The translations under genes and the position numbers were made by a program. Source: Candidatus Firestoneibacteriota bacterium (GTDB lineage Bacteria > Oederibacteriota > D2-FULL-39-29). From it: a DNA stretch of 64,000 bases. The notes under the pieces are model-generated. The model was not told the DNA's origin. It did not search any database and saw only the letters and a program-made list of their open reading frames with translations. Shown here piece by piece: positions 2,791-63,741 of this stretch (position 1 is its first letter; each line of letters begins with the position of its first letter). The stretch spans positions 3,727 through 67,726 of the forward strand of contig CAITEH010000052.1 of assembly GCA_903891415.1 (NCBI GenBank). Direction: 5' to 3'.

Positions 2791-2900
2791 ATCTGTGCGA
2801 TTCCACCACAAAGCGCTGGTGGATTTCGCTTCACTCAACTCTCTACCCATCCCTGCCCGCCGGTCTTTTTGGAGGGTGTGTCATCAGGCCACAAAGGCCT
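2791..2900. repeat. Truncated copy of the CACAGAT/ATCTGTG element with one CCACCA..TGGTGG palindrome
   Basis: 2791-2838 matches 51478-51525 at about 43 of 48 nt. TGTGTCATCAGGCC (2877-2890) is the exact reverse complement of 51338-51351. Confidence 0.8.
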
Positions 2901-8479: not shown

Positions 8480-9649
8480 ATGGATATCAAGTCAAAACTG
8501 AATATGAACGTAATTAACGCCCCCATGTCGGGAATAAGAAAGATCTCGGATATGGTCATGCAGATGAAGGATGTTATCAGGATGGACCTGGGAGAACCTG
8601 ATTTTGATGTTCCTGAACACATTAAAGAAGCGGCTATTTATGCCATAAAAAGCGGTTTTTCCCATTACACTCCCGGTCCCGGAATTTTGGAACTTAGAAA
8701 GGCCGCGGCTTCCAGGTTTAAAAATGATAACGGCCTGGACTATGACCCGGAAACGGAGATCACGGTCACGCAGGGCGGTGTCGGCGCCATATATTCCGCG
8801 CTTCAGACCCTGGTCAATCCCGGGGATGAGGTGATCGTTTCTGACCCGGTTTGGCCTGTCTACCTCGGGATACTTGGAATTCTGGAAGCAAAGCCGGTAC
8901 TTGTCACGCTTAAAGAAAAAGACGGCTTTAATATGCTGCCGGAAGAAGTTAGCAGGAAGATCACCTCTAAAACCAAGTGCATTGTAATAAACAGCCCCAA
9001 CAATCCGACGGGCGGGGTTATGACCGAAGAGAATATAAAAGCCGTTGCAAAAATAGCCCGGGAAAAAGGAATATTTGTTCTTTCCGATGAGTCCTATGAA
9101 AAACTTATTCTCGGCGGAAGAAAACATCTCTCGATAGGGTCGCTTCCCGGCATGCGCGACCTGACGGTTACGCAGTTTACTCTTTCAAAAACCTACGCGA
9201 TGACAGGGTGGAGAATAGGTTTTGCGGTGGCGAACAAGGAGCTTTCCGCGGGTATAAGAAAGGTTTCGCTCTATACAATTACCCATGCAAACTCTGTCGC
9301 GCAAAAAGCGGCGGTCGCGGCGATAAACGGCCCGCAGGATTGTGTCGCAAAAATGGTACAGGCCTTTAAGGAGAGGTCCAAGATCCTTGTGGACGGTTTA
9401 AATGCCACCGGCAAGATCACGTGCATACAGCCGGAAGGGGCTTTTTATGCTTTTGCAAATATTTCCGGGCTGAAAATGAAGTCAGAAGAATTCGTGCTTA
9501 GAATGATAAAAGAGGCCGGGGTCTCGGCCGTAAATGGTTCTGCTTTTGGCGAAAGCGGAGAAGGTTTTGTCAGATTCTGTTTTGCTAACTCGCATGAAAA
9601 TATCCGGGAAGCGGTCAAGAGGATAAGCGCGTTTACCGCTAAACTCTGA
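8480..9649 (+). CDS. PLP-dependent class I/II aminotransferase
   Basis: GEPDF, NSPNNPTG, SDESY, SKTYAMTGWRIG, GAFY. Confidence 0.93.
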   Translation: MDIKSKLNMNVINAPMSGIRKISDMVMQMKDVIRMDLGEPDFDVPEHIKEAAIYAIKSGFSHYTPGPGILELRKAAASRFKNDNGLDYDPETEITVTQGGVGAIYSALQTLVNPGDEVIVSDPVWPVYLGILGILEAKPVLVTLKEKDGFNMLPEEVSRKITSKTKCIVINSPNNPTGGVMTEENIKAVAKIAREKGIFVLSDESYEKLILGGRKHLSIGSLPGMRDLTVTQFTLSKTYAMTGWRIGFAVANKELSAGIRKVSLYTITHANSVAQKAAVAAINGPQDCVAKMVQAFKERSKILVDGLNATGKITCIQPEGAFYAFANISGLKMKSEEFVLRMIKEAGVSAVNGSAFGESGEGFVRFCFANSHENIREAVKRISAFTAKL

Positions 9650-49723: not shown

Positions 49724-51214
49724 TTAAAGTGCGGGTTTAATGGCTGCCCAGTCATTGGGAGTTGTCATTACCCATTCTATGCCGAATACCTCCGCGATCT
49801 TCGCTATGGTCCGCGCGTGGTGGCCTATTCCCAGAGCGAAATGATGCGTCGGGCCTTCCGCAACCCAGCGTTTAAGGAAGGTTCTTACGTCAGGCATAAA
49901 TCTGCCATGCGTGTTTGTATTTCCGGTCGGGGGTATGGGGCGCCTTTCTGAAAGGCCTTCAGCTATTATGAATTTAAACTGTCCGTCAGGTTTTACGCCG
50001 ATAGAAAGCATGGTGATAGGGCCTGTTTTCAGGCTGAATTCCACCCCGGCGCCGGAACCCGGCTTGCCGTGATAGACTTTCAAGCTTCTTAAAGAAGGTT
50101 TTGCGTCGGCTATATTCAAATGATGCGGGCCGTCATGTCCGACCAGTATGGTGTCATTATCAAAGTCTATCGGGTGGAATTCCGCGAAACTCCCGCCTAT
50201 ATCCAGGCGGTCCATGATCATCATGGCTATGCAGTTCTTAATATCATACTCTCCGCACATGGGAAAGCCGGCAGCCGTGAGCAGAGAATTGCCCACTATG
50301 AAGTTGGTGACGAGTTCCCGCATTTTGGAACCGGCTTCTGCTTCGTAGTAATAGGCCAGGCCGTCAAGTTTCTTTTCGTCGATAAAACTTTCCAGGGCCA
50401 AAGCTGCAGCAGCGGCTATTTCAAGATGTTCCGGCCTGAGCTTTTCGGTTATAGGGTCTGACTTGGGAGTGGGTGTATTGAAGAAACTCAGAATACGCTC
50501 CTTCATTTTTTCTATTTTTTTCCGGTCGGGTTCTTTGTAGTATTTCATGACATCATCCGGCTCGCATTGCACGGCGTGCAAACCGAAAGTCCGGGTAAGA
50601 GCCGCCGCATCCGTATGCATATCATACATGGATTCCAGCACATGCCCCAGGTGCCCTATACGGGCTTTTTTTACGTCATGCAGCACTTTTGCGATCTGGC
50701 ACCACTCGGCGACTTCAAGATCGGCTTTTTTATCGCCTTCCAGTATTCCTATAATAACCGGCGGTATTTTTGCGCCCATACGCAGGGCGACATCATTAAA
50801 TTCCGGCACGGAGCAGACATCGTCGTTGCAGAGCTGCATAAAAGTCGAAGCTTTGGTATAATCCATGGCACTGAGCGGCTGCAGTGCTGTCAGAACCATG
50901 GGAACCTGCAGGTGATGTAAAAGAGGCGCGAAGGTGGAAGAGGTGGCATAAGTGACCATATCCACGAACAGAAGGTCAAGGTCTCCGGCTTTTATTTTGG
51001 GGATAACTTCGTACGCGGAAGTTGAATTATCTATCAGCCCGTAATCTGTTACCGTAACACCGTTCTTTTCAAGTTTCTTGACCAAAACCTTTGTTTTTCT
51101 GTTCATTTCCTCAAGGAGCCCCGCGAACTGCGGCCAGTAGGTATAATGTCCCATGCTTATTACTCCCACCCGGGCGGTAAGCGGTTTTCTTCTTGGTATT
51201 CTCAGGTCAGCCAT
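49724..51214 (-). CDS. L-fucose/L-arabinose isomerase family protein (second paralogue)
   Basis: YWPQF, TYATS, CEYD metal ligands, GHDGP, GPTHH. SD AAGGAG. Confidence 0.85.
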   Translation of the reverse strand: MADLRIPRRKPLTARVGVISMGHYTYWPQFAGLLEEMNRKTKVLVKKLEKNGVTVTDYGLIDNSTSAYEVIPKIKAGDLDLLFVDMVTYATSSTFAPLLHHLQVPMVLTALQPLSAMDYTKASTFMQLCNDDVCSVPEFNDVALRMGAKIPPVIIGILEGDKKADLEVAEWCQIAKVLHDVKKARIGHLGHVLESMYDMHTDAAALTRTFGLHAVQCEPDDVMKYYKEPDRKKIEKMKERILSFFNTPTPKSDPITEKLRPEHLEIAAAAALALESFIDEKKLDGLAYYYEAEAGSKMRELVTNFIVGNSLLTAAGFPMCGEYDIKNCIAMMIMDRLDIGGSFAEFHPIDFDNDTILVGHDGPHHLNIADAKPSLRSLKVYHGKPGSGAGVEFSLKTGPITMLSIGVKPDGQFKFIIAEGLSERRPIPPTGNTNTHGRFMPDVRTFLKRWVAEGPTHHFALGIGHHARTIAKIAEVFGIEWVMTTPNDWAAIKPAL

Positions 51215-51265
51215 GTACTTCTCCTTTTGGTCAATAACAGTTTGTTAAATTTAGTTTGAATTTAG

Positions 51266-51295
51266 ATTATACCTTTTTTTTCTTTTCATAATCAA
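51266..51295 (-). promoter_or_regulatory. Promoter of isomerase gene
   Basis: TTGATT, 18 nt, TATAAT on the minus strand. Confidence 0.5.
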
Positions 51296-51342
51296 GGCCC
51301 AAATCCGGCCAAAATTGCAGGATTTTGGCTGGATTTGGGCCT
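51295..51342. repeat. 21-bp hairpin/cruciform
   Basis: AGGCCCAAATCCGGCCAAAAT-TGCAGG-ATTTTGGCTGGATTTGGGCCT, one G-T pair, no U tract. Confidence 0.85.
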
Positions 51343-51667
51343 GATGACACAGATGGGAAGCGAGATGTCACAGATAGGGGCAAAAAGCACAGATTTGCAT
51401 TTCGGGACAAATGAATTATATTTATAGGCCGGCAATTTGTAATTGAAAGGAAAGGAACATAAATTGCGGAAAAAAACATCTGTGCCATTCCACCACAAAA
51501 CGTTGGTGGATTTCGTTCCACTCAATCCACCACAAAGCATTGGTGGATTTCGTGCCACTCAACTCTCTGCCTGTCCGGAGGCCTTCTGAACTATACCTCG
51601 CCAAAGCATTTGGGGCGTTATCTCCCATTTTTATCTGTGCCATCTCCCTACCCATCTGTGTCATCAG
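51341..51667. mobile_element. MITE-like element with 17-bp perfect terminal inverted repeats
   Basis: CTGATGACACAGATGGG (51341-57) / CCCATCTGTGTCATCAG (51651-67), extending imperfectly to about 36 bp. Two tandem 37-bp palindromic units at 51489 and 51526. No transposase. Confidence 0.65.
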
Positions 51668-51678
51668 CCCCGCTGGGC

Positions 51679-51707
51679 TTGTGTTTGTCTGCTATATATG
51701 GTAAAAT
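51679..51707 (+). promoter_or_regulatory. Promoter of thyA-like gene
   Basis: TTGTGT, 17 nt, TGgTAAAAT. Confidence 0.5.
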
Positions 51708-51792
51708 CCTTTGAATTCAAAAAATTGTCTTCAATATCAGTGGAATCTGATAGTTTTGTAATCAGTGGAATCGTTTTAGTAGGGGGGAACAA

Positions 51793-52617
51793 ATGGACGG
51801 AAATATTCCCGTGTTAAGGGTTGAAGGCGAAACTCTTCCGGAAGCGTGGGAGAAAGCGGTAATTACGGCCTGGGAACAGGGTGTAGATATCAAAACGGAA
51901 TATGATAAACCGGGCGATCCTGCGAGCAAAGACTGCACTATGATGCTGGTCGTGAATGACCCGTTCAAAGAACCCCGTATCCATAGGGCTTTTCCGGGCG
52001 GGCTGGAAGATCTTGAAACCTATAGACAGGAAGTAGTTGACGGCATTCATGATCACTGGATCAAACCCGAAGAAGGAAAATGGACCTATACCTACCATGA
52101 AAGGTTCTTTGATTATAAAATTGAAGGCCGCTCCGTGGATCAGATAAATTACATAATAGAAAAACTTTCGCAAAGTTTCTATTCAAGGAGAGCCCAGGCC
52201 ATGACCTGGAATCCTCTGAAAGACCCGCCTTCCTACGATCCCCCCTGCCTGCAGATGCTTTGGGCCAGGGTACAGGAAGGTAAGGACGGAAAGAACTATC
52301 TTAATGTCAACACCATCTGGCGCAGTAACGATGCTTATAAAGCCGCTTTTATGAATATTTTCGCGCTTACCGAGCTTCAAAGGGTGATCGCGGCAAAGAT
52401 AAGCGAAAAAACCGGGAAAATAATAATACCCGGGCGCTATGTCCACTTCGCGAACAGCTTCCATATATACGGCTCTTACTTTAAAGATTTTAAAAATTTC
52501 CTTGAGACAGTTAAGAACAGAAAATGGGAAGAGCGTGTCTGGAATACTGAGTTTGCTGAGCCGTTTTTTGAGATAGGCAGGGAAAAGATAAGGGAAGAAA
52601 AAAGGAAAGGAATTTAA
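51793..52617 (+). CDS. thyA: Thymidylate synthase family protein (archaeal-like)
   Basis: YTY..R, RRA...W, PPCL catalytic Cys, RSND, MN, HIY. Confidence 0.82.
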   Translation: MDGNIPVLRVEGETLPEAWEKAVITAWEQGVDIKTEYDKPGDPASKDCTMMLVVNDPFKEPRIHRAFPGGLEDLETYRQEVVDGIHDHWIKPEEGKWTYTYHERFFDYKIEGRSVDQINYIIEKLSQSFYSRRAQAMTWNPLKDPPSYDPPCLQMLWARVQEGKDGKNYLNVNTIWRSNDAYKAAFMNIFALTELQRVIAAKISEKTGKIIIPGRYVHFANSFHIYGSYFKDFKNFLETVKNRKWEERVWNTEFAEPFFEIGREKIREEKRKGI

Positions 52618-56262: not shown

Positions 56263-56291
56263 ATTATATTATATAGTAGTTCCTTTGTCAA
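56263..56291 (-). promoter_or_regulatory. Consensus sigma70 promoter, leaderless geometry
   Basis: TTGACA, 17 nt, TATAAT, then 7 nt to ATG 56255 with no SD. Confidence 0.8.
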
Positions 56292-56320
56292 ATCAAAACA
56301 CGGAAAACGGAAGGGAAACA

Positions 56321-63603: not shown

Positions 63604-63700
63604 AGTAATATATATCACAAAATAATCCGGAAAGCAAAGATAAACCAAACCTGCTCCAATATTCCATCTTTTGTTATTAATTTATTATAGATCCTGCACT

Positions 63701-63741
63701 ATCTGTGTCATCTCATTTGTCATCTGTGCCATCTGCCTTCC
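63701..63741. repeat. ATCTGTG right-arm remnant
   Basis: ATCTGTGTCATC..GTCATCTGTGCCATCTG, same units as 51632-51667. Confidence 0.65.

What the first reader, a model, noticed from the sequence alone, without database searches (positions are those of the whole stretch)
51295..51679. MITE-like element whose ends are each capped by a hairpin
A 327-bp element has 17-bp perfect TIRs built from GATGNCACAGAT sub-repeats. The left terminus is part of a 21-bp hairpin (51295-51342), the right terminus part of AGCCC-cgct-GGGCT (51666-79), and the 2.9-kb copy ends in AGGCC-acaaa-GGCCT. Inside are two tandem 37-bp palindromic units and a third decayed one (51599-51617). It separates the divergent isomerase and thyA promoters. 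The CACAGAT/ATCTGTG arms recall GxxExxY gene flanks (recollection, unverified).
Basis: partly seen in the sequence, partly recalled or inferred. Interest (0 to 1): 0.62.

Follow-up and report, generated by a model that had tools for sequence, protein, structure and literature searches.

The report
Gene-less arms of GxxExxY nuclease cassette
The 327-bp "MITE" is an old, gene-less pair of hairpin-capped repeat arms belonging to a small, uncharacterised nuclease gene (GxxExxY/PDDEXK_3) elsewhere in this Firestonebacteria genome. This nuclease-plus-dispersed-repeat arrangement resembles REP/RAYT and NTS/Ssn, is not described in the papers I could search, and has been noted many times by this scan on other DNA.

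Summary
The element has 40-nt inverted arms (51337-51376 / 51632-51671). Each arm is a doublet of GATGNCACAGAT spaced 21 nt, and each is capped by a hairpin.

It is not a classical MITE:
- There is no target duplication and no transposase partner.
- Most of the ~36 genomic copies are solo arms.
- The same element sits in the same spacer of a sister species with ~78% gene identity.

The arms match those bracketing a single-copy GxxExxY (PF13366) nuclease gene in the paaK|ACT spacer of three species. A paralogous nuclease gene is bracketed by a different 12-mer, GATTYCACTGAT, which is also dispersed and has a doublet at 51736-51772. 12-mer abundance follows gene presence across six related genomes, with one exception.

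Between species:
- 12-mers differ at 4/110 positions, spacers at ≥16/45, and genes at about 22%.
- Cap hairpins keep pairing through four compensatory changes.
- One cap exists in the sister species without the doublet, so some caps are pre-existing host hairpins.

Best reading: these are recognition modules of a Cas4-like nuclease, analogous to REPIN/RAYT or NTS/Ssn. The activity itself is inferred. The scan found this class before on other DNA. The hairpin caps and the two matched nuclease/12-mer pairs are the local additions.

The parts
51295..51342 (.). Left cap hairpin (21-22 bp stem, loop TGCAGG), abutting the outer 12-mer with no gap
   Evidence: (I2), and the fold. Orthologous in G001 with two compensatory pair changes.
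51341..51375 (+). Left arm: CT + GATGACACAGAT - GGGAAGCGA - GATGTCACAGAT (family-1 doublet, 21-nt phase)
   Evidence: One difference in 22 non-N 12-mer positions against G001, versus 3/9 in the spacer.
51478..51489 (-). Internal single family-1 12-mer (AATGGCACAGAT) fused to the first REP-like unit. The same junction recurs at C18, C50 (twice) and window 2791-2823.
51486..51559 (+). Two tandem 37-nt units, each holding a TCCACCACAAARCRTTGGTGGA hairpin. They belong to a separate 'B' repeat family and are absent from the G001 orthologue.
   Evidence: D1; 58 pattern matches, about 45 of them clear copies, including tandem arrays on C12, C14, C38.
51599..51617 (+). Decayed B-like unit (GCCAAAGCATTTGGGGC)
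   Evidence: D2 third copy, 86%.
51633..51667 (-). Right arm: CT + GATGACACAGAT - GGGTAGGGA - GATGGCACAGAT, read on the - strand
   Evidence: Orthologous in G001.
51666..51679 (.). Right cap hairpin AGCCC-cgct-GGGCT. Its last T is the first base of the putative thyA -35 hexamer.
   Evidence: G001 has GTCT-tgct-GGAC, with one C-G to T-A compensatory change.
51736..51772 (-). Doublet of the second 12-mer family (GATTCCACTGAT twice, 25-nt phase) in the thyA leader, ending 10 nt before the run of G that serves as ribosome-binding site. Absent in G001.
   Evidence: (D6).
51266..51295 (-). Predicted promoter of the isomerase-like gene (TTGATT-18-TATAAT), starting at the foot of the left cap
51679..51707 (+). 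Predicted thyA promoter (TTGTGT-17-TAAAAT, TGG extended -10)
   Evidence: Read. The -10 region is conserved in G001. It did not pass the scan threshold.
63698..63733 (-). Solo family-1 doublet between the CDF transporter gene and the next gene. No abutting cap and no partner arm.
2791..2900 (+).
56291..56311 (.). Spacer with no unit in this genome.

Best explanation
The 327-bp element is a gene-less pair of arms of a GxxExxY (PF13366, PD-(D/E)XK) nuclease cassette.

Shown:
- One nuclease gene per 12-mer type sits in a housekeeping spacer between inverted arrays of its own 12-mer. Family 1 (GATGNCACAGAT, 21-nt phase) is at paaK|ACT. Family 2 (GATTYCACTGAT, 25-nt phase) is at frr|uppS or atpD|atpC.
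- The same arm modules are scattered through intergenic DNA as solo arms or inverted pairs.
- They usually sit tight against a stop codon, a ribosome-binding site or a -35 box.
- In family 1 the outer 12-mer is capped by a hairpin of locus-specific sequence closed by AG...CT.

Inferred:
- The 12-mers are binding sites of the cognate nuclease.
- The hairpin foot (CT|GATG) next to them is where the nuclease acts, on folded single-stranded or cruciform DNA. This would parallel RAYT on REP/REPIN or Ssn on NTS.
- Arms settle at, or are kept next to, DNA hairpins.
- The system is largely vertically inherited, with occasional bursts and losses.

Whether it is purely selfish or does something for the host is not known.
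For: Gene-arm link:
- Both PF13366 genes of this genome lie between inverted arrays, each with its own 12-mer.
- The same holds in G001, G002 and G004.
- Among distant PF13366 loci from many phyla, 25/49 have an exact inverted match of at least 12 nt around the gene, against 3/48 displaced controls. Their arm units are CRCARAG-like.

Phyletic match:
- Family-1 12-mers number 46, 93 and 42 in the three genomes that carry the family-1 gene.
- They number 4, 9 and 2 in the three same-family genomes without it, and 0-5 in 35 others.
- Family-2 12-mers number 54 and 94 where that gene is intact, 20 where it is a 34-aa remnant (G001), and 4 and 17 where none was found.

Constraint:
- At five orthologous arms, G000 versus G001, 12-mers differ at 4/110 non-N positions and spacers at ≥16/45. 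Flanking genes are about 78% identical.
- Orthologous caps carry four compensatory pair changes.
- 12-mers and cap decay together at C12 and C18 in G001.

Caps:
- 22/36 on the outer side, 3/36 on the inner side, 8.8% at random positions.
- The cap AGCGCCCGC..GGGCGCT at C5:62895 is present in G001 without any doublet.

Folding and fold:
- As single-stranded DNA the element folds as cap | arm stem | cap with no unpaired base between helices, z = -7.35.
- The nuclease keeps E, D and E-x-K invariant.
- Its model (pLDDT 80.6) is closest to Cas4 SSO0001 (4ic1, E 2.8e-3, TM 0.53). Lambda exonuclease and MGME1 come next with far weaker scores (E 0.03-0.08).

Turnover:
- G001 has at least 19 near-identical composite copies at sites that are empty or differently filled in G000.
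- The family-2 gene cassette occupies different spacers in G000 and G004.
Against: - No binding or cutting was observed. The protein-12-mer link is correlative and rests on six related genomes that are not independent.
- G002 has 93 family-2 12-mers but no family-2 gene was found.
- The family-1 gene of this MAG carries a 1-nt frameshift inside the GxxExxY motif. Another assembly of the same species reads intact.
- No movement was caught between near-identical strains.
- The gene-bearing family-1 cassette is at one locus in every assembly seen.
- Cap origin is mixed. One is pre-existing in the sister species, but two are absent together with the doublet.
- Caps are not found at arms of distant PF13366 cassettes (2/54 outer, 4/54 inner), so they cannot be essential to the family.
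- The fold match to Cas4 is weak.
- Repeat periods of 8-10 nt in other lineages do not fit one simple binding geometry.
Confidence: 0.6

Rival explanations
1. It is a classical MITE: a non-autonomous derivative of a DDE (or other) transposon. Its transposase binds the sub-terminal 12-mers and moves it by cut-and-paste.
For: - The TIRs begin 5'-TG (CT|GATG can be read C|TGATG), with multiple phased sub-terminal sites as in Mu, Tn7 or IS21 ends.
- There are insertion/absence differences between G000 and G001, and a burst of near-identical copies in G001.
Against: - There is no direct target duplication at 51341/51667. The flanks continue the inverted repeat.
- The only gene found between such arms is the 124-aa PF13366 nuclease.
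- Most copies are single arms.
- The window's element and several others are orthologous across species at 78% gene identity.
- The G001 burst copies a larger composite in which the doublet is internal.
Confidence: 0.07
2. The doublets are operator or activator sites of an ordinary transcription factor regulon. They lie just upstream of promoters, the hairpins are insulating terminators, and the link to GxxExxY genes is incidental or autoregulatory.
For: - All units are intergenic.
- About 20 caps face a gene start and several caps abut a -35 hexamer.
- The 21-nt phase equals two helical turns.
- 12-mers are conserved between species.
Against: - Orientation to transcription is mixed. About 10 units follow stop codons and 3 lie between promoter and ribosome-binding site.
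- The flanking genes have no common theme.
- 12-mers are near-perfect copies rather than a degenerate regulon motif.
- Units are gained, lost or decayed between sister species without any change in the genes.
- Two independent 12-mer types each bracket their own PF13366 paralogue.
- Tight placement next to -35, ribosome-binding site or stop is what survivorship of insertions in a 91%-coding genome would give.
Confidence: 0.12
3. They are inert relics. An ancient burst of a now-dead repeat left copies that persist by chance, and the hairpins are unrelated host terminators.
For: - The family-1 gene is frameshifted in this MAG.
- Some units are decayed in G001.
- One cap is a host hairpin present without the doublet.
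Against: - 12-mers diverge about 10 times less than their own 9-nt spacers and about 6 times less than genes.
- Caps show four compensatory changes.
- An intact gene copy exists in the same species.
- 12-mer counts fall where the gene is lost.
Confidence: 0.08
4. It is an RNA element, either a leader or a small RNA. The hairpin and repeated AUCUGUGNCAUC motifs would act in the transcript.
For: - Three family-1 caps overlap or abut a ribosome-binding site.
- Family-2 doublets sit 8-14 nt before ribosome-binding sites.
- The hairpin covaries between species.
Against: - Units occur in both orientations relative to flanking genes.
- In the window both caps lie upstream of the predicted -35 boxes, outside the predicted mRNAs.
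- No Rfam family comes near its gathering score.
Confidence: 0.08

Closest known systems
REP/REPIN repeats with their RAYT (Y1/HUH) transposase
   Same: - A single-copy, vertically inherited small nuclease-type gene is bracketed by the same short repeats that are dispersed in tens of copies in intergenic DNA.
- The repeats occur as hairpins, inverted doublets and tandem mosaics.
- Different paralogues go with different repeat sequences.
   Different: - The gene is a PD-(D/E)XK (PF13366) protein, not an HUH/Y1 enzyme.
- The conserved part is a phased direct repeat of a 12-mer, not the hairpin itself. The hairpin here has a locus-specific sequence.
- The three RAYT-like genes of this genome have their own, unrelated inverted flanks.
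NTS/SRM repeats with Ssn (GIY-YIG single-strand nucleases), PMC11893778
   Same: - A small nuclease gene is flanked on both sides by its cognate dispersed hairpin-containing repeat.
- Repeat abundance tracks gene presence across genomes.
- In Ssn the repeat is bound and cut in single-stranded DNA. That is the mechanism I infer here.
   Different: - The nuclease fold is different (PD-(D/E)XK against GIY-YIG).
- In NTS the hairpin sequence is conserved.
- Nothing is known here about transformation or any activity.
GxxExxY cassettes noted earlier by this scan in other genomes (e1-2366687, e1-360840, e1-978592, e1-2502029)
   Same: - A PF13366 gene lies between inverted arrays of a short unit with a CRCARAK-like core.
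- Gene-less or orphan arms are dispersed.
- The elements are wedged tightly between housekeeping genes.
- I reproduced the framing on 49 distant loci.
   Different: - Here the unit is a 12-mer at 21- or 25-nt phase rather than 7-10 nt units at 8-11 nt.
- Family-1 arms carry a hairpin cap, which I did not find at distant cassettes.
- Two paralogue/12-mer pairs coexist in one genome.
MITEs and transposons with multi-site ends (Mu, Tn7, IS21)
   Same: - Terminal inverted repeats are built from repeated sub-terminal sites.
- The elements are short and gene-less.
   Different: - There is no target duplication and no transposase.
- Copies are mostly single-ended.
- Copies are conserved at orthologous sites.

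Membership tests
GxxExxY (PF13366) repeat-armed cassette (class noted by this scan, not in print) | A PF13366 gene is bracketed by inverted arrays of the same short unit as the element in question. | tested here: met
   - C36 8893/8944(+) ... 9491(-) lie around the PF13366 gene at 9139-9396.
- The orthologues in G001 and G002 have the same arms.
GxxExxY (PF13366) repeat-armed cassette (class noted by this scan, not in print) | The abundance of the unit follows presence of the cognate gene across related genomes. | tested here: met
   - Family 1: 46, 93 and 42 with the gene, against 4, 9 and 2 without it.
- Family 2: 54 and 94 with the gene intact, 20 with a remnant, 4 and 17 with none.
- One exception: G002 has 93 family-2 12-mers and no gene was found.
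- Only six genomes, and they are related.
GxxExxY (PF13366) repeat-armed cassette (class noted by this scan, not in print) | The nuclease binds or cuts the arm units. | not testable with these tools
   - Catalytic E, D and E-x-K are invariant.
- The fold is closest to Cas4.
- No biochemical data exist.
MITE of a DNA transposon | Terminal inverted repeats | tested here: met
   40 nt at 90%, with a 17-bp perfect core.
MITE of a DNA transposon | Direct target-site duplication at both ends | tested here: not met
   The flanks GGGCC|T... and ...A|GCCCC are inverted, not direct, and the caps differ from each other.
MITE of a DNA transposon | An autonomous partner with the same ends around a transposase gene | tested here: not met
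   - The only gene between such ends is the 124-aa PF13366 protein.
- Most spacers hold a single arm.
- I did not search systematically for transposase genes; only RAYT-type (PF01797) genes were looked up, and those have other flanks.
MITE of a DNA transposon | Presence/absence at orthologous sites in close relatives | tested here: inconclusive
   - The window's element is present in both species.
- Other units are present in only one species, but the species are about 22% diverged and the sites are often refilled by other repeats.
REP/REPIN-RAYT | A RAYT (PF01797) gene is flanked by the repeat. | tested here: not met
   Three PF01797 genes (C46, C75, C50) are flanked by their own inverted sequences. 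No family-1, family-2 or B units lie next to them.
Ssn/NTS | A GIY-YIG Ssn nuclease gene is flanked by SRM hairpin repeats. | tested here: not met
   The flanked gene is PF13366, a PD-(D/E)XK protein. The repeat has a different form.
Any described RNA family (Rfam 15) | A match reaching the family's gathering score | tested here: not met
   The best match scores 22.9 bits against a gathering score of 230. All matches are hairpin look-alikes of plant or animal miRNA models.

The most novel reading that the evidence does not exclude
The hairpin-capped, phased 12-mer arm is the substrate of a Cas4-like PD-(D/E)XK nuclease that copies or relocates arms through a folded single-stranded three-helix intermediate, landing at the CT foot of DNA hairpins. 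That would be a new class of nuclease-driven mobile element. This lineage would hold two orthogonal nuclease/12-mer pairs whose specificity differs at two base positions (G4/A9 against T4/T9). They could be swapped experimentally, and might serve as programmable sequence- and structure-specific ssDNA nucleases, as Ssn does.
Probability: 0.15. Interest if true: 0.8.

Novelty: new variant of a known kind. Interest (0 to 1): 0.5.

Why it matters
PF13366/GxxExxY is a very widespread small nuclease family with no known function (PMC3424549; only three papers in the library mention the name). This locus offers a compact natural experiment:
- Two paralogues sit in one genome, each with its own 12-mer.
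- One gene decayed in a sister species, which has fewer of its 12-mers (20 against 54).
- Binding-site-like conservation is measurable against unconstrained 9-nt spacers.
- A structurally conserved hairpin sits exactly at the arm boundary.

This gives concrete oligonucleotide substrates and a specificity-swap design for a first biochemical test of the family. It also suggests that part of the dense intergenic repeat load of Firestonebacteria is nuclease-associated. For genome annotation, these units explain many 'orphan' hairpins and repeats next to promoters, ribosome-binding sites and stop codons.

Tried and rejected
- **RNA family:** the Rfam scan of 51150-51850 gave nothing near gathering scores.
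- **Solved homologue by sequence:** none. The best was the BpuSI nuclease domain at E 0.21.
- **REP/RAYT:** three RAYT genes exist but have unrelated flanks.
- **Sigma-54 promoter:** TGGCAC occurs in GATGGCACAGAT, but the N position varies and no TTGC follows at the right distance (read).
- **DnaA boxes and KOPS (GGGNAGGG in the spacer):** the motifs do not fit, or lie only in the variable spacer.
- **Cap as an inverted copy of the flank made at insertion:** not supported as a rule.
  - In the G001/G000 comparison at window 56291-56311 the distal arm is not in the unit-free site.
  - At G004 atpD the distal arm differs from relatives by a three-base codon change.
  - One cap pre-exists without the doublet.
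- **Caps as a general trait of PF13366 cassettes:** rejected (2/54).
- **A 2.9-kb-long copy ending at 63733:** there is no left end. rimO-like, phosphatidyltransferase-like and other ORFs lie in between.
- **Replication-strand bias:** not attempted, because the contigs are too short to orient.

Full report
**1. The observation**

The sequence is as described. One search finds inverted arms 51337-51376 / 51632-51671 (40 nt, 90%). Each arm is made of two GATGNCACAGAT 12-mers 21 nt apart. There are six exact 12-mers in the window against 0.00 expected.

The left arm abuts a 21-bp-stem hairpin (51295-51342). The right arm abuts AGCCC-cgct-GGGCT (51666-51679). Inside are two tandem 37-nt palindromic units (51486-51559) and a decayed third.

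It ends in AGGCC-acaaa-GGCCT. It is not a 2.9-kb-long element.

As single-stranded DNA, 51290-51685 folds as left cap | arm-arm stem | right cap with no unpaired base between the helices. The energy is -85.7 kcal/mol against -50.2 for shuffles, z = -7.35.

**2. Genome-wide picture**

The window is C52:3727-67726 of a 2.50-Mb, 86-contig assembly. Its sister genome is named Candidatus Firestonebacteria.

- There are 46 exact 12-mers and about 36 doublets.
- All doublets are intergenic by my crude ORF calls, which put 91% of the genome in ORFs.
- A position-weight scan shows that most spacers hold a single arm. Only C36, C52 (this element), C19 and C58:68706 hold inverted partners.
- A perfect hairpin of at least 5 bp abuts the outer 12-mer in 22/36 units. 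The figure is 3/36 on the inner side and 8.8% at random intergenic positions.
- CT precedes the outer 12-mer in 29/36 units.
- The stems differ completely between copies, even copies that share almost the same doublet and spacer (GGGTAGNGA).
- The capped end faces the nearest gene boundary. About 20 face a gene start, often with the cap's last T beginning a -35-like hexamer. About 10 face a stop codon. Three overlap or abut a ribosome-binding site.

**3. What the arms belong to**

Aligning the C36 pair with its G001 orthologue showed a small conserved gene between the arms. It carries the motif G-H-V-E-K-V-Y.

- It is PF13366 (PDDEXK_3, 'GxxExxY'), E 1e-29.
- The genome has exactly two PF13366 genes.
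- The second, C75:274-651, is bracketed by inverted arrays of a different but related 12-mer, GATTCCACTGAT. There are at least four copies at 52-nt period (plus a degenerate fifth) on the left, where the array runs off the contig start, and three reverse copies on the right.
- That second 12-mer is also dispersed: 54 exact copies, usually as doublets at 25-nt phase.
- One such doublet lies at window 51736-51772 in the thyA leader.
- In G004 the family-2 gene sits in another spacer (atpD|atpC), again between GATTCCACTGAT doublets. In G001 the frr|uppS copy is reduced to a 34-aa remnant.
- The family-1 gene is at paaK|ACT in G000, G001, G002 and four metagenome contigs. That spacer lacks it in G003, G004, G006 and G009-G011.

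**4. Phyletic test**

Exact 12-mer counts, with gene status:

| 12-mer family | Gene status | Counts |
|---|---|---|
| Family 1 | gene present (G000, G001, G002) | 46, 93, 42 |
| Family 1 | same family, no gene (G003, G004, G005) | 4, 9, 2 |
| Family 1 | 35 other relatives | 0-5 |
| Family 2 | gene intact (G000, G004) | 54, 94 |
| Family 2 | remnant only (G001) | 20 |
| Family 2 | no gene found (G003, G005) | 4, 17 |
| Family 2 | no gene found (G002, the exception) | 93 |
| Family 2 | 35 other relatives | 0-2 |

The genomes are few and related, so this is suggestive and not a statistical proof.

Independently, 25 of 49 distant PF13366 loci from many phyla have an exact inverted match of at least 12 nt around the gene, against 3 of 48 displaced controls. 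Their arm units share a CRCARAG-type core, to which CACAGAT belongs. This agrees with earlier notes of this scan.

**5. Age and constraint**

The isomerase|thyA spacer of G001 carries the orthologous element: long left cap, doublet, a 57-nt core, right doublet and a weak right cap. Genes of the two species are about 78% identical. The 255-nt core in this genome is longer because B-type units sit in it.

- Over five orthologous arms (window left and right, C36 left and right, C41), the 12-mers differ at 4 of 110 non-N positions. Their 9-nt spacers differ at 16 or more of 45.
- Orthologous caps show four compensatory double changes: window left G-C to C-G and C-G to G-C; window right C-G to T-A; C49 G-C to T-A.
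- At C12 and C18 the G001 copies have decayed, 12-mers and cap together.

So both parts are under selection, or are homogenised, where the unit is kept.

**6. Turnover**

- G001 has units where G000 has none. One is at window 56291-56311, where the G001 unit ends exactly at the T of a shared TTGACA. Another is a 358-nt composite in a spacer that is 7 nt in G000.
- At least 19 G001 copies share the same cap (GCYGCT-aaaag-..GCRGCT) and spacer (AAAAACA). They lie inside a larger nonamer-array composite. This is a species-specific burst in which the doublet and cap are internal passengers.
- Conversely, three G000 units are missing in G001. At C6 and C58 the cap is missing too. At C5:62895 G001 has the same hairpin AGCGCCCGC..GGGCGCT right after the stop codon, with no doublet beside it.
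- Therefore at least some caps are host hairpins that pre-exist, and the arm sits at their foot. Others appear and disappear with the arm. I could not settle which is the rule.
- Caps are not seen at distant PF13366 cassettes (2/54 outer against 4/54 inner).

**7. The protein**

- E30, D69, E79 and K81 (numbering of the G001 protein) are invariant in 29 sequences at 31-42% identity.
- The AlphaFold model has pLDDT 80.6 and pTM 0.75.
- Its best PDB match is Cas4 SSO0001 (4ic1, E 2.8e-3, TM 0.53). Lambda exonuclease, MGME1, the R2 endonuclease domain and Hjc follow with far weaker scores (E 0.03-0.17). The top-ranked ones are single-strand or end-processing PD-(D/E)XK enzymes.
- No sequence-level PDB relative exists.
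- In this MAG the family-1 gene has a 1-nt deletion in an A-run inside the motif. Another assembly of the same species (L118) is intact and a third (L119) is not.

**8. How it most likely works**

Shown: the gene-arm architecture, two cognate pairs, dispersal, constraint on 12-mers and on cap pairing, and tight placement against gene boundaries.

Inferred: the nuclease recognises its phased 12-mers and acts at the adjacent hairpin foot on folded single-stranded or cruciform DNA. This would parallel RAYT on REP and Ssn on NTS (PMC11893778). Arms persist or spread from there.

In the window both caps lie upstream of the predicted -35 boxes, so a role in the flanking mRNAs is unlikely here. This favours a DNA-level role.

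The placement right at -35, ribosome-binding site or stop is most simply explained by survivorship in a compact genome.

**9. Rivals**

- A DDE-type MITE is disfavoured. There is no target duplication, no transposase found between such arms, copies are mostly solo arms, and copies are orthologous across species.
- A transcription-factor regulon is disfavoured by mixed orientation, unrelated genes, copy-like perfection and species-specific gain and loss.
- Inert relics are disfavoured by the conservation contrast.
- An RNA element is disfavoured by mixed strandedness and position.
- REP/RAYT membership fails. The three RAYT genes have their own flanks.

**10. Novelty**

I found no paper describing repeat-armed GxxExxY genes. 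Searches show only incidental mentions, and Pfam lists the function as unknown.

The scan itself has noted the class in many other genomes, and later checks there found no movement. This report should therefore be read as another instance with three local additions:
- Two orthogonal nuclease/12-mer pairs with matched gain and loss.
- A quantified constraint on the 12-mers.
- Structurally conserved hairpin caps, some of which are pre-existing host hairpins.

Noticed in passing
window 51736-51772; genome-wide (e.g. C19:31176, C40:4898, C44:3406, C51:4460, C73:18260): Family-2 doublets (GATTYCACTGAT, 25-nt phase) almost always end 8-14 nt before a ribosome-binding site, as ATCAGTGGAATC-GTTYT..-GGAGG-N-ATG. 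They therefore sit in 5' leaders in one fixed orientation. The thyA leader of G001 lacks the doublet.
   Followed up: partly
window 51486-51559, 2802-2823; C38:23601-23862 (7 units, 40-nt period), C12:33968-34141, C14:23086-23181: The pattern for a separate repeat family (hairpin TCCRCCACAAAGCGTTGGYGGA with tail TTTCGCT.CACTCAAC) matched 58 places, about 45 of them clear copies, and the family forms tandem arrays. Five copies are fused to a family-1 12-mer. It flanks no RAYT or PF13366 gene in this genome, although its CACAAAG core resembles PF13366 arm units of Bacteroidota.
   Followed up: partly
G000 C46:856-1188(-), C75:11491-11817(+), C50:2497-2784(-): There are three RAYT/IS200-like (PF01797) genes. 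Each lies between its own short inverted flanks (GGGACAGCCACC.., GGGACAGCGACCAATTA.., GTAGGTCAGACATTCCTGTCTGAC).
   Followed up: partly
paaK|ACT spacer in G004 (L040), G006 and G009-G011 (L043-L046); G000 C18:56261-56335 versus G001 L029: The same orthologous spacer is filled by different short-period array elements in different species (GGATGYTTGGA arrays, GMTTGGAAG arrays, CTAGNACC inverted arrays, RGACYTTAY nonamer arrays). Spacers appear to be reused as landing sites with fast turnover.
   Followed up: no
G001 loci L011-L029 (e.g. L014:2789-3147, L027:2735-3167): G001 shows a species-specific burst of at least 19 near-identical composites. In each, a family-1 doublet plus cap lies between two direct copies of GGTCTARAATCGTTGAAGGATAT inside nonamer arrays. 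G000 has 2 such copies (C85:17212, 17547).
   Followed up: partly
G000 C36:~9135 (L119) versus metagenome contig L118: A one-base difference in an A-run inside the GxxExxY motif makes the family-1 nuclease frameshifted in the MAG and in one metagenome contig, but intact in another contig of the same species. Both versions end 5 codons early relative to G001 and G002.
   Followed up: partly
G002 L031:~1320-1350: A small palindromic element (ATCCGCC..GGCGGAT) is inserted inside the first 12-mer of the left arm of the G002 cassette. The same small palindrome sits at the foot of the C5:62895 hairpin in G001, in place of the doublet.
   Followed up: no
3' end of the paaK-like gene: G000 C36:~8855-8882, G001, G002 versus G003, G004: The last codons (V-F-D-M-R-N-I-K-stop) form a perfect 10-bp hairpin (TATTTGATAT/ATATCAAATA) only in the three genomes that carry the cassette. 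Genomes without it encode a near-identical peptide with no hairpin. Likewise, the atpD end in G004 reads GCGCAT..ATGCGC where relatives have AAG (Lys).
   Followed up: partly
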